Positions 11,318 to 13,276 of a stretch of 64,000 nt of DNA are shown one piece after another; position 1 is the first letter of the stretch, and each line of letters starts with the position of its first letter. The notes beneath the pieces were generated by a model, which ran no database searches, had not been told where the DNA came from, and saw only the letters and a list, made by a program, of their open reading frames with translations. The position numbers and the translations under genes were made by a program. Source of the DNA: Verrucomicrobiota bacterium (GTDB lineage: Bacteria; Verrucomicrobiota; Verrucomicrobiia; Limisphaerales; JACRJZ01); the NCBI GenBank assembly GCA_016219875.1, contig JACRJZ010000150.1:870-64869 (forward strand), given 5' to 3'.

Positions 11318-11767
11318 ATGAAACGCCTTTTATCCCTGGCAGTTTTGGCCGCGCTGGCGGCACTTCTTCACGCGCAACAATACGAGATCAAGTGGAGCAC
11401 CATCGATGGCGGTGGCGGCACCAGCACCGGCGGCGTCTATTCCGTCAGCGGCACCATCGGCCAGCCCGACGCCGGCGCCATGATCGGCGGCAGCTACTCG
11501 GTGGTGGGCGGCTTCTGGAGCTTTGCGGCGGCCGTCCAGACGCCCGGCTCGCCCGTGCTCAGGATCGTTGGCGCCACTCCGAACGTCGTCGTCTGCTGGC
11601 CCGATCCTTCCAGCGGCTTCAGTCTGCAACAGACCCACGTCCTGGCCACACCTCCGGCCACGAGCGCGTGGACCGCGGTAACCAACAGCGCCGTTGTCGT
11701 CGAGGGCGAGAAGACGGTCACGTTGCCCGCCGTGCCAGGGGACACCTACTTCCGTCTCGTCAAGTAA
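11318..11767 (+). CDS. secreted hypothetical protein carrying the C-terminal FYRL module
   Basis: Signal peptide [19 protein letters not shown]. Gly-rich repeats ([16 protein letters not shown] / [11 protein letters not shown]). C-terminal ~60 aa end ...DTYFRLVK. Confidence 0.55.
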   Translation: [149 protein letters not shown]

Positions 11768-11816
11768 GCCCGCGCAGCCCAGCCGCCAACCTCGGTGAGT
11801 TCAAGAATCCCTGGAT

Positions 11817-11891
11817 CGTAGCCGCCGACGTGAGGAGGCTCTGTTTTCAAATCCGAAATCAAAACAGAGCCTCCTCACGTCGGCTGCTACG
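11817..11891. repeat. family A palindromic element
   Basis: CGTAGCCGCCGACGTGAGGAGGCTC - TGTTTTCAAATCCGAAATCAAAACA - GAGCCTCCTCACGTCGGCTGCTACG. The loop is itself palindromic. Confidence 0.65.
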
Positions 11892-11935
11892 CTTTCTTGA
11901 ATCTGGGCAACCCGATCAGGAGATCGCCTTGAGAC

Positions 11936-13276
11936 ATGACAACGAACTGCGCAATGAGGTCGCCGGCGACAGCCCTCATCGTGGCGGTGCTGGCCTCTTG
12001 GTGGGTGGCGGCCCAATCGCCCCCGCCGTTCGAGAGCGTGGGATTGCCGGATCACTTCGTCGCCACGCTTGCGTTGCAAACGTCGAACGGCCAGGTGAGC
12101 GCGGGATCAGCGGCCTTCCAAGTTGACTGCACCCGCCTGCAGTTTGTGGTGAACCTCGAACAAGCGTTTACCAATGTTACTGGAACGACTTTGCGAACGG
12201 GCACTCGCCAAGTGCGCGTGGACCTTGGCCCGGGCACGATGGCGTTCGGAGCCAAGATCGCTTCCGAAGGAGTGGCCGCTGCAGCGGGAAAGCCGAACCT
12301 CCTGGCCGGCAATCCCAAGGCGCTCGCGCCCATCCGATACGCCGGCGCCGTTCCGCTGCATGTGACGCTGCTGCGTGAGTTGCAGACTGGCCAAGGCGTC
12401 CTGCGCCTCATTCTCAAAGCACCGGAGGGACAGGGGGCCGCTTTGCCCATTGTGGAAGGACCACTGCTGGCCGTGACGAATGCCGGTGCCACCAATCCCC
12501 TGCCCTGCTGGCCGCGGAGTCCGAGATCGGTGACCGCTCGATACACGGCTGGGCCGGCCTTCGCGGTGCCGTTTGACATCTACGCCGACGGTGTCGGTGA
12601 AGTGGACGTGGACGCCGAGGGCGAGACAGATTTCTTCTTTTGTGTCAGCACTCTTTGCGTAGGTCCGACAGGCGGGGGATACCCGTGCCCGTTCCCGATT
12701 TCGGTGACGTGTTTCGGAACGAACCAGATGCTGGCCCGCAGCTACAAGGCGGCCGTGTTGGCCATCGGTGCGACGATCGGTCCCGCCCCGCCCGCGGAGT
12801 CGAGTTGGACGAAGTACAACGTCCGCTTGACCAGTCTGACGGACCCTGGCCCGGTGGCCACGGACGATCTAGGCCGCCTGGGCGAAGGCTACTTGGGCCT
12901 GCGGCTGCGGCAAGCGGACGGCTGGCATTACGGCTGGATGCGGGTGCATCTATCCAGCGCGGCGCCCAATCCGTTCTGGCCAGTGCCCGTGATCGAGGAC
13001 TGGGCCTACGAGCCGGCCCCTGACACGGCCATTCTGGCGGGTGCCAGGCCCGTTCCGGTCCCGCTGCGGAACGACGGCCTCCAGGCTTCGGGCCGCCTGC
13101 GCATGACGTTCACGGGTGAAATCGGCCAGGCCTACACGCTGCAATTCCGGCCCGAACTAACGGTGGGATGGTGGACCAACTTGAGCGGAGCCTTGATCAG
13201 CACCGCGCGCGAAGTGCTGTTGGACGTGTCGCTGACAGGGCCAAGCGGATTCTATCGGGTCATCGAAGCGGAGTAG
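11936..13276 (+). CDS. secreted hypothetical protein carrying the C-terminal FYRV module
   Basis: Signal peptide (ALIVAVLASWWVAAQS). No recognisable catalytic motifs. C-terminal ...GPSGFYRVIEAE. Confidence 0.55.
   Translation: MTTNCAMRSPATALIVAVLASWWVAAQSPPPFESVGLPDHFVATLALQTSNGQVSAGSAAFQVDCTRLQFVVNLEQAFTNVTGTTLRTGTRQVRVDLGPGTMAFGAKIASEGVAAAAGKPNLLAGNPKALAPIRYAGAVPLHVTLLRELQTGQGVLRLILKAPEGQGAALPIVEGPLLAVTNAGATNPLPCWPRSPRSVTARYTAGPAFAVPFDIYADGVGEVDVDAEGETDFFFCVSTLCVGPTGGGYPCPFPISVTCFGTNQMLARSYKAAVLAIGATIGPAPPAESSWTKYNVRLTSLTDPGPVATDDLGRLGEGYLGLRLRQADGWHYGWMRVHLSSAAPNPFWPVPVIEDWAYEPAPDTAILAGARPVPVPLRNDGLQASGRLRMTFTGEIGQAYTLQFRPELTVGWWTNLSGALISTAREVLLDVSLTGPSGFYRVIEAE

What the first reader, a model, noticed from the sequence alone, without database searches (positions are those of the whole stretch)
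11318..13276. Shared ~60-residue C-terminal module ending in F(Y/L)R(L/V) on four unrelated secreted proteins
The phosphoesterase (C-terminus at 4933: ...LSLTNWTAISTNVPTTTNFKVFDPGARQTPRRFYRVREGP), the small Gly-repeat protein (11767: ...[50 protein letters not shown]), the 446-aa hypothetical protein (13276: ...YTLQFRPELTVGWWTNLSGALISTAREVLLDVSLTGPSGFYRVIEAE) and the purple-acid-phosphatase-like protein (C-terminus at 56475: ...MQSTPDVTVTDAWHPATNVPWQVGGTNFIRLDTTGSNQFLRLRRQQP) all carry signal peptides. They share a terminal pattern L(Q/E)xSxDLxxxxWTx(V/I)...F(Y/L)R(L/V) within a few residues of the stop. A conserved C-terminal beta-rich tag on otherwise unrelated exported enzymes resembles a sorting or attachment domain of the T9SS-CTD or PEP-CTERM type. 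I do not recognise it as either.
Basis: partly seen in the sequence, partly recalled or inferred. Interest (0 to 1): 0.6.

Follow-up and report, generated by a model that had tools for sequence, protein, structure and literature searches.

The report
Truncated FN3 tail on verrucomicrobial exoproteins
Four unrelated exported proteins in this Verrucomicrobia contig end in the same small beta-sandwich module, an unannotated fibronectin-type-III variant lacking its last strand that is widespread in this bacterial lineage and whose role (surface attachment versus sorting) is still unproven.

Summary
Exactly four ORFs in the window end in F(Y/L)R(L/V), all four have signal peptides, and their passenger parts are unrelated. 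Pairwise identity of the tails is only 10-25%, but profiles built from other genomes recover all four with no hits in a reversed-sequence control. There are two subtypes: Gly149 and PAP702 ('WP..GF.LQ'), and PE380 and Hyp446 ('G..Y.VE.S.DL..W'). They join by profile-profile comparison (96%, E 2e-9).

At least 15,494 protein clusters carry the module; all those with a credible taxon label are Verrucomicrobiota. It lies at the extreme C-terminus in about 96% of carriers. It also forms tandem arrays of up to 11 copies and is occasionally N-terminal, which argues against a cleaved sorting signal. I favour a surface-retention or binding stalk module; this is inferred, not shown.

The parts
4703..4933 (+). 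C-terminal FN3-like tail (subtype B) of the 380-aa phosphoesterase (PE380), ending RFYRVREGP-stop
3791..4702 (+). Signal peptide (about residues 1-35) and PF04185 phosphoesterase passenger of PE380
   Evidence: Pfam PF04185, E 3.8e-23, residues 85-287. Signal peptide read from the sequence.
11318..11377 (+). Signal peptide of the 149-aa protein (Gly149): [20 protein letters not shown]
   Evidence: Sequence. AF2 helix at residues 2-16.
11375..11536 (+). Conserved Gly-rich N-module of Gly149 ([20 protein letters not shown]...TIGQPDAG...GGFW); function unknown
   Evidence: Many invariant columns across 32 homologues. No Pfam, NCBIfam or PDB match. AF2 pLDDT <50.
11549..11767 (+). C-terminal FN3-like tail (subtype A) of Gly149, ending TYFRLVK-stop
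11936..13048 (+). Signal peptide and passenger of unknown fold of the 446-aa protein (Hyp446)
   Evidence: No Pfam or NCBIfam family. Signal peptide read from the sequence.
13049..13276 (+). C-terminal FN3-like tail (subtype B) of Hyp446, ending GFYRVIEAE-stop
   Evidence: 7.2e-11 with the window-free seed profile; 9.8e-7 without the terminal motif columns.
56475..56705 (-). C-terminal FN3-like tail (subtype A) of the 702-aa purple-acid-phosphatase-like protein (PAP702), ending QFLRLRRQQP-stop
   Evidence: 4.5e-9 with a profile made only of Gly149-family tails. 2.6e-6 without the terminal motif columns.
56706..58583 (-). Signal peptide and Pur_ac_phosph_N + Metallophos passenger of PAP702
   Evidence: Pfam PF00149 at 1.3e-21 and PF16656 at 1.3e-7.

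Best explanation
The four tails are copies of one lineage-specific protein module of about 60-70 residues. It is a divergent fibronectin type III (FN3) beta-sandwich that ends after strand F. 'RFYR[LV]' is the tyrosine-corner strand, and the polypeptide stops 2-4 residues later, usually at a proline, so the canonical seventh strand G is absent. These points are shown.

Also shown:
- The module is fused, after a short and often Pro-rich linker, to the C-terminal end of many unrelated Sec-exported proteins of Limisphaerales/Pedosphaera-type Verrucomicrobiota. The passengers include phosphatases, proteases, amylase-like enzymes, beta-propellers, adhesin-like giants and YD-repeat proteins.
- It is usually present in one copy, sometimes in arrays of 2-11.

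Inferred:
- It does not act as a cleaved secretion signal.
- It acts as a C-terminal stalk or retention module that keeps exported proteins associated with the cell envelope or with a polymeric ligand.
- The exposed edge strand F at the free C-terminus is the most likely contact site.
- Copy number tunes reach or avidity, in the way C-terminal cell-surface binding repeats and CBM/X-modules work in other bacteria.
For: Homology of the four tails:
- The evidence is set out in the observation check: window-free profiles, 0 hits in the reversed-sequence control, and hhalign 96% between the two subtypes.

FN3 identity:
- The profile of 34 tails against PDB sequences hits FN3con at E 2.2e-6. It hits the C. 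thermocellum Fn3-like protein 3MPC at E 3.4e-4, with tail positions 1-72 aligned to residues 5-74 of 103.
- The tail HMM positions 1-68 align to FN3con residues 1-67, which places RFYR on strand F.

Missing strand G:
- Two to four residues follow the motif (mode 3), and the last residue is P in 79/125 carriers. The tandem period is 72-73 aa, against about 90 for FN3.
- The AF2 models show strands A to F only.

Distribution:
- 15,494 cluster representatives at E<=1e-3.
- About 39 non-Gly149 carriers per Mb in 1.15 Mb of Verrucomicrobiota loci, and 4 in this 64-kb window.

C-terminal position: 120/125 and 139/144 carriers.

Export: signal-peptide-like N-termini in 101/122 carriers against 45% of control ORFs, Fisher p 5e-15, using a crude predictor.

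Diverse passengers.

Tandem arrays with Pro-rich linkers, and variable copy number behind the same N-terminal module. This is typical of stalk or avidity modules and not of sorting signals.
Against: - No direct evidence of localisation, ligand binding or retention exists. The functional half of the statement is inference from architecture.
- The conserved residues are the ordinary FN3 core: the W of strand B, the Y/F of strand C, the W of C' and the F/Y of strand F. No conserved surface patch that would indicate a binding site was identified.
- The strict terminal position with a fixed 2-4-residue overhang is also what a recognition tag would look like.
- The proportion of single-copy to multi-copy proteins is uncertain. 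Multi-copy proteins were 0/125 in the loci but 63% of the best 150 global hits, and that list is biased by summed scores.
- The AF2 models are of moderate confidence (mean pLDDT about 70), and coordinates could not be inspected. The absence of a seventh strand therefore rests mainly on sequence length and alignment. In Gly149 a short upstream strand (residues 70-73) is predicted and might fill the gap in cis.
Confidence: 0.5

Rival explanations
1. The tail is a dedicated C-terminal sorting signal, functionally like the T9SS CTD. A lineage-specific outer-membrane export or attachment machinery recognises the folded terminal beta-sandwich, translocates the cargo and possibly cleaves or anchors it.
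For: - Extreme C-terminal position in about 96% of carriers, with a tightly constrained 2-4-residue overhang.
- Restriction to signal-peptide proteins with highly diverse passengers.
- High copy number per genome, about 39 per Mb, in one bacterial lineage.
- PEP-CTERM-like ends are rare in the same loci: 2 in 1.15 Mb.
Against: - Tandem arrays of 2-11 copies, and N-terminal or internal copies (L026, P0208, P0216), are unknown for sorting signals.
- The conserved 'motif' is just the FN3 core.
- There is no match to TIGR04183/PF18962 or any other sorting-domain model.
- No candidate machinery was seen, although it could not be searched for genome-wide.
- From general knowledge, T9SS is confined to the Bacteroidota/FCB group.
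Confidence: 0.2
2. The tail is a passive structural module, such as a folding or solubility aid, a spacer, or a generic glycan-binding X-module or CBM. It has no role in sorting or cell attachment. Its C-terminal position only reflects how domains are added by 3'-end recombination.
For: - Homology to Fn3-like modules of secreted clostridial glycosidases (3MPC).
- Tandem repeats with Pro-rich linkers.
- Only core residues are conserved.
Against: - Spacer FN3 modules normally sit between domains. A spacer with nothing after it has no obvious purpose, yet about 96% of arrays end the protein.
- Many passengers are not carbohydrate-active: phosphatases, proteases, YD-repeat and TPR proteins.
- The systematic loss of strand G in thousands of copies suggests a selected property of the terminal edge.
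Confidence: 0.2
3. Strand complementation. The G-less FN3 tail is an acceptor for a beta-strand donated in trans. A candidate donor is the conserved amphipathic N-terminus ([15 protein letters not shown]) of the Gly149 family; an outer-membrane protein is another. This would tether cargo or build fibres, as in chaperone-usher or type V pili.
For: - The tail lacks strand G, leaving F as a free edge strand.
- The Gly149 family has an invariant alternating-hydrophobic N-terminal segment followed by a Gly-rich linker. It is very abundant, with several paralogues per genome.
- AF2 cannot fold the Gly149 N-module on its own; pLDDT is below 50.
Against: - AF2 did not dock the Gly149 N-terminus onto its own tail.
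- A 3+3-strand sandwich may be stable on its own, and both models are reasonably confident without a seventh strand.
- No chaperone- or usher-like genes were seen next to the carriers.
- The idea is untested speculation.
Confidence: 0.08
4. Chance resemblance or compositional artefact of a GC-rich genome.
For: Pairwise identities are only 10-25%, and pairwise BLAST is weak.
Against: - Zero hits in reversed-sequence controls.
- Window-free profiles recover all four tails at 1e-9 to 1e-14.
- 15,494 clusters are found in a 1.84-billion-protein library.
- AF2 predicts beta-sandwich folds, confidently for the Gly149 tail (pLDDT 80-95) and moderately for the PE380 tail (mean pLDDT 70).
Confidence: 0.01

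Closest known systems
Fibronectin type III (FN3) modules of bacterial extracellular enzymes, e.g. the Clostridium thermocellum Fn3-like protein (PDB 3MPC)
   Same: - Sequence-profile similarity: 3MPC at E 3.4e-4 and FN3con at E 2.2e-6.
- The same conserved core positions in strands B, C, C' and F.
- Found on secreted enzymes and joined by Pro/Thr-rich linkers.
- Can be tandemly repeated.
   Different: - Not recognised by Pfam fn3 or any other Pfam or NCBIfam model.
- About 60-70 aa with a 72-73-aa tandem period, instead of about 90.
- Ends after strand F, with no strand G.
- Almost always the last element of the protein rather than an internal spacer.
- Seen so far only in Verrucomicrobiota.
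T9SS C-terminal domain (CTD; TIGR04183 / PF18962 Por_Secre_tail) of Bacteroidota
   Same: - A small beta-sandwich at the extreme C-terminus of many unrelated signal-peptide proteins.
- Tens to hundreds of carriers per genome.
- Low pairwise identity between copies within one genome.
   Different: - No HMM match.
- Tandem and N-terminal copies exist.
- Six rather than seven strands.
- The host phylum is not known to have a T9SS (general knowledge).
- Cleavage and attachment are untested.
PEP-CTERM / exosortase sorting signal (TIGR02595)
   Same: A C-terminal tag on many exported proteins in environmental Gram-negative bacteria, including Verrucomicrobia.
   Different: - PEP-CTERM is a roughly 25-aa PEP motif followed by a TM helix and an Arg cluster, not a folded domain.
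- None of the tails has this. Only 2 PEP-CTERM-like ends were found in 1.15 Mb, on other proteins.
Non-covalent C-terminal surface-binding repeats (SLH, GW, choline-binding, LysM) and CBM/X-modules
   Same: - Terminal position.
- Variable copy number of 1 to more than 10.
- Diverse enzymatic passengers.
- Lineage-specific distribution.
   Different: - No sequence or specific structural relationship.
- No ligand is known.
- The hosts are diderm Verrucomicrobiota.
Incomplete Ig-fold pilins of chaperone-usher pili (donor-strand complementation)
   Same: An Ig-like sandwich lacking the C-terminal G strand.
   Different: - No homology.
- No chaperone or usher genes were seen.
- No evidence of strand donation.
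- AF2 folds the tail alone.

Membership tests
T9SS C-terminal sorting domain (type A TIGR04183/PF18962; type B TIGR04131) | Match to the family HMM | tested here: not met
   No hit for the four proteins at E<=1 or for 34 tails at E<=10 in Pfam and NCBIfam.
T9SS C-terminal sorting domain (type A TIGR04183/PF18962; type B TIGR04131) | Single copy, only at the extreme C-terminus | tested here: not met
   The position is C-terminal in about 96% of carriers. However, 2-11 tandem copies occur in 91 of the 144 best global hits, and N-terminal or internal copies exist.
T9SS C-terminal sorting domain (type A TIGR04183/PF18962; type B TIGR04131) | Specific structural similarity to solved CTDs | tested here: inconclusive
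T9SS C-terminal sorting domain (type A TIGR04183/PF18962; type B TIGR04131) | Genome encodes T9SS machinery (SprA/Sov, PorV, PorU, GldKLMN), and PorU cleaves the CTD | not testable with these tools
   Only 64 kb plus 20-kb loci were available. No proteomic data exist.
PEP-CTERM (TIGR02595) | PEP motif, then a hydrophobic TM segment, then a basic cluster at the C-terminus | tested here: not met
   The tails end in beta-strand RFYRLxxP. The regex finds 2 PEP-CTERM-like ends in 1.15 Mb, none of them on a tail carrier or in the window.
Autotransporter (type V secretion) | C-terminal beta-barrel translocator of about 250-300 aa | tested here: not met
   The module is 60-70 aa and is a soluble sandwich in the AF2 models. 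No Pfam autotransporter hit was found.
Fibronectin type III domain (Pfam PF00041; FN3 fold) | Match to Pfam fn3 above the gathering score | tested here: not met
   No fn3 hit even at E<=10 for 34 tails.
Fibronectin type III domain (Pfam PF00041; FN3 fold) | Significant sequence-profile similarity to bona fide FN3 domains | tested here: met
   FN3con at E 2.2e-6 and 3MPC at E 3.4e-4 over nearly the whole profile. The local alignment matches tail positions 1-68 to FN3con residues 1-67.
Fibronectin type III domain (Pfam PF00041; FN3 fold) | FN3 topology by structure comparison | tested here: met
Fibronectin type III domain (Pfam PF00041; FN3 fold) | Seven strands A-B-C-C'-E-F-G | tested here: not met
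   The alignment to FN3 ends at strand F. The stop codon follows 2-4 residues later, and the tandem period is 72-73 aa. AF2 shows six strands.
Chaperone-usher type donor-strand pilins | Incomplete Ig fold completed by a donated strand; dedicated chaperone and usher genes | not tested
   Only the missing G strand is shown. No multimer modelling was possible, and no chaperone or usher was looked for genome-wide.

The most novel reading that the evidence does not exclude
The G-strand-less FN3 tail is the acceptor half of a strand-complementation (beta-augmentation) display system specific to Limisphaerales-type Verrucomicrobiota. Exported enzymes and adhesins would be tethered to the cell surface, or to fibres built from the abundant Gly149-family proteins. 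The tether would form when a strand is donated into the open edge next to the terminal RFYRL strand. This would be a new, sortase-independent and T9SS-independent way of displaying roughly 4-8% of the proteome.
Probability: 0.08. Interest if true: 0.8.

Novelty: new variant of a known kind. Interest (0 to 1): 0.45.

Why it matters
- An unannotated domain present in at least 15,000 protein clusters is a sizeable gap in current domain databases. In this window it sits on about 1 in 12 of the roughly 45-50 long ORFs. Naming it would improve annotation of Verrucomicrobiota exoproteomes, which are important in soil and freshwater polymer and phosphorus turnover.
- If the tail mediates surface retention or sorting, it would define the cargo set of an uncharacterised display pathway in a phylum whose protein export is poorly understood.
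- A cultured carrier exists (Pedosphaera parvula), which makes the question experimentally testable.
- If it is only a truncated FN3 spacer, it is still a clean natural example of a stable six-strand FN3 variant.

Tried and rejected
Searches that added little:
- The search for homologous proteins with tail-only alignments failed because of the word index. A2 gave 0 hits. A3 gave 16 short fragments.
- Foldseek of the full Gly149 model against PDB gave nothing below E 0.07.
- The afdb50 fold library was not available, so no organism or annotation survey by structure was possible.
- The look-up of encoding contigs did not have Gly149 on record. For PAP702 it returned only a 9-kb Logan contig.
- Five literature searches found no description of this module. 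They used Verrucomicrobia/Pedosphaera sorting terms, T9SS/Planctomycetes terms, the motif strings RFYRL/RFYRV, FN3 plus Verrucomicrobiota, and exoproteome/sorting signal.

Ideas tested and dropped:
- A conserved two-gene cassette of Gly149 plus a downstream carrier. Only 7 of 58 downstream ORFs carry the tail. Fifteen form a separate family without Pfam hits.
- T9SS CTD, PEP-CTERM and autotransporter membership (see membership tests).
- Chance resemblance (reversed-sequence controls).

Weak points of my own methods:
- My signal-peptide predictor is crude; 45% of control ORFs score positive.
- The loci were selected around Gly149 homologues, so carrier density may be biased.
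Full report
**Source and context.** The window is almost all of a 64.9-kb contig of a Verrucomicrobia MAG. The 149-aa protein is NCBI HZA90_25695. GC content is about 64%.

- PE380, 3791-4933(+)
- Gly149, 11318-11767(+)
- Hyp446, 11936-13276(+)
- PAP702, 56475-58583(-)

All four begin with a classical signal peptide. 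The passengers are unrelated. PE380 is a PF04185 phosphoesterase. PAP702 has Pur_ac_phosph_N plus Metallophos. Gly149 and Hyp446 have no Pfam or NCBIfam family. No model in either library covers any of the tails.

The tails are only 10-25% identical to each other, and pairwise BLAST is marginal. I therefore tested homology with profiles. A scan of species-representative genomes with the Gly149 family gave 78 loci (1.09 Mb). Nearly all come from Limisphaerales/Pedosphaera/subdivision-3 Verrucomicrobiota; a few bins carry implausible labels. I translated all six frames of the loci and the window (9,906 ORFs) and used the reversed sequences as a control.
- A profile made only of Gly149-family tails from other genomes finds the PAP702 tail at 4.5e-9, plus tails on proteins of 673-1,614 aa.
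- A second profile was seeded with 18 tails of the other flavour, with window sequences left out. It finds PE380 at 5.4e-14 and Hyp446 at 7.2e-11.
- With the F-Y-R columns deleted, those two values are still 3.4e-9 and 9.8e-7. The similarity is therefore not just the terminal motif.
- The two subtype profiles align over 70 columns with hhalign probability 96%, E 2e-9. On iteration they merge into one family of 125 ORFs.
- There were no reversed-sequence hits at any step.
- The bare motif occurs at the C-terminus of 133/9,754 ORFs, against 11-18 at control positions.

The refinement is that there are two subtypes:
- Subtype A, 'vvvaWP..GF.LQ.n..L...W': Gly149 and PAP702.
- Subtype B, 'f.f...G..Y.vE.S.dL..W': PE380 and Hyp446.

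**2. What is it?**

*The decisive result is at sequence level.*
- A profile of 34 diverse tails (A3) searched against all PDB sequences hits the consensus-designed FN3con at E 2.2e-6.
- It hits 3MPC at E 3.4e-4, with tail positions 1-72 aligned to 3MPC residues 5-74 of 103.
- Against FN3con, tail positions 1-68 align to residues 1-67.

'vsW' is strand B. 'Y.v(Q/E)' is strand C. The nearly invariant W is strand C'. 'RFYR[LV]' is the tyrosine-corner strand F.

*Strand G is missing.*
- FN3 continues for about 20 more residues (the FG loop and strand G). These proteins stop 2-4 residues after the motif (mode 3).
- The last residue is Pro in 79/125 carriers.
- In tandem arrays the period is 72-73 aa rather than about 90. 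Strand F leads through a short Pro-rich linker straight into the next strand A.
- The AF2 model of the PE380 tail has strands A, B, C, (C'), E and F only.

The module is thus a divergent FN3 domain lacking strand G. Pfam fn3 and every other Pfam or NCBIfam model miss it even at E<=10 on 34 tails.

*Distribution and architecture.*
- A 12-sequence profile (A4) searched with full HMMER against 1.84 billion cluster representatives finds 15,494 proteins at E<=1e-3 and 1,764 at E<=1e-10. This is a lower bound. The profile is dominated by subtype A, and a third variant (L040, L049) escapes my HMMs.
- Named members are Verrucomicrobiota. Their source annotations include proprotein-convertase P-domain, subtilisin-like, YD-repeat and autotransporter-associated beta-strand proteins.
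- In the loci, 45 carriers are not of the Gly149 family, about 39 per Mb. The window has three such carriers plus Gly149 itself.
- Passengers there include PD40 propellers, HYR, I-set Ig, glucose/sorbosone dehydrogenase, TSP3 repeats, alpha-amylase and an HZS-alpha-like domain; a neprosin protease (L049) carries the third tail variant.
- Signal-peptide-like N-termini occur in 101/122 carriers against 45% of control ORFs, p 5e-15. The predictor is crude.
- The module ends within 8 residues of the stop in 120/125 carriers in the loci and is never duplicated there.
- Among the 144 best global hits, the last copy lies within 10 residues of the C-terminus in 139. However, 91 of them have 2-11 tandem copies. 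That list is biased towards multi-copy proteins, because scores add up.
- Clear exceptions exist. L026:16227-18497(-) has the module directly after its signal peptide, followed by 600 more residues. P0208 has three copies at the N-terminus of a 2,462-aa TPR protein. P0216 has internal copies.

*The Gly149 family.* Gly149 itself belongs to a very large family: 7,061 clusters at 90% identity and 482 tblastn-positive stretches in species-representative genomes, often several per genome. It consists of a signal peptide, a highly conserved Gly-rich module and the tail. The same Gly-module-plus-tail cassette is found with 2-6 tails. It is also found appended to larger passengers (P0225, P0241, P0259).

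**3. How does it most likely work?**

*Shown:* it is a lineage-specific, G-less FN3 module. It is fused by short linkers to the C-terminal end of many unrelated Sec-exported proteins, in one or several copies.

*Inferred:* it is not a cleaved sorting signal. Three observations fit an autonomous module better than a tag read by a translocon:
- It forms tandem arrays.
- It occasionally sits at the N-terminus.
- Only the FN3 core is conserved.

A spacer at the very end of a protein makes sense only if that end is attached to something. The systematic loss of strand G leaves strand F as a free edge at the C-terminus. I therefore favour a retention or stalk module that holds cargo at the cell envelope, or on a polymeric ligand, with copy number setting reach or avidity (confidence about 0.5).

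*Rivals:*
- A true CTD-like sorting signal (0.2). The near-invariant terminal position and fixed overhang favour it. Tandem copies, the lack of any model match and the lack of known machinery argue against it.
- A passive structural or CBM-like module (0.2).
- Strand complementation in trans (0.08), for example by the alternating-hydrophobic N-terminus of Gly149 proteins. The missing strand is suggestive, but AF2 did not dock that segment onto the tail.
- Chance is excluded.

**4. Comparison with known systems.**

By membership it belongs to the FN3 superfamily at profile and fold level. It fails the Pfam fn3 model and the seven-strand definition. T9SS CTD, PEP-CTERM (only 2 such ends in 1.15 Mb, on other proteins) and autotransporter membership are each refuted on a defining feature.

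Functionally it resembles two kinds of module. One is T9SS CTDs: terminal, many diverse cargos, lineage-specific. The other is non-covalent surface-binding repeats or X-modules: variable copy number, linkers.

**5. Novelty.**

This is a new variant of a known kind: an undescribed, truncated FN3 subfamily with a distinctive terminal architecture and very wide use in one phylum. Five literature searches found no description.

**6. Verdict.**

Interest is moderate (0.45). The module is a real and large annotation gap and a testable candidate for a surface-display module. It turns out to be a variant of a common fold, and a sorting function is not demonstrated.

Noticed in passing
window 11375-11536 (+); also P0137-P0152, P0225, P0241, P0259: The Gly-rich N-module of Gly149 has the consensus [49 protein letters not shown]. 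It is highly conserved, matches nothing in Pfam, NCBIfam or PDB, and is not folded by AF2. It always directly precedes the tail. It occurs with 1-6 tails and also between a larger passenger and the tail. The family is very large (7,061 clusters) with several paralogues per genome.
   Followed up: partly
L026:16227-18497 (-): A 756-aa ORF carries the tail module immediately after its signal peptide (N-terminal position), followed by about 600 further residues. This is one of the few non-C-terminal copies.
   Followed up: partly
L040:14431-15258 (+), L049:4798-9291 (+): A third tail variant (...GFTLLSADQAGGPW...KFYRIRSP) ends these proteins but is not detected by my merged HMM. The L049 protein is a 1,497-aa neprosin/NHL-repeat protein. 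The superfamily is therefore broader than counted.
   Followed up: no
window 26135-26588: There is a 222-bp direct tandem repeat (2.0 copies, 95% identical) inside the 1,610-aa response-regulator/PAS ORF at 25071-29903(-). It coincides with a strong AT-skew anomaly (-0.37) and raised GC at 24-28 kb.
   Followed up: no
window 58458-58583 (-): The PAP702 signal peptide has SRRRSGG before the hydrophobic core. It may be a twin-arginine (Tat) signal, which would fit a metal-cofactor phosphatase.
   Followed up: no
window 5000-7870 (+): This is a 956-aa GH141-like right-handed beta-helix protein with a signal peptide but no FN3-like tail. Not all exported proteins of this genome carry the module.
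   Followed up: partly
L004:6040-7695, L005:2818-4515, L043:10488-12545, L051:10509-12575 and 11 more: Fifteen of the 58 ORFs directly downstream of Gly149 homologues form one homologous family with essentially no Pfam annotation. This may be a conserved partner of the Gly149 family. The window's Hyp446 is not a member.
   Followed up: partly
L001, L012, L029, L030, L063, L068, L071, L073, L078: Loci carrying this Verrucomicrobiota-type gene come from bins labelled Binatia, Bifidobacteriaceae or Bifidobacterium. These are probably mislabelled or contaminated MAG records.
   Followed up: no
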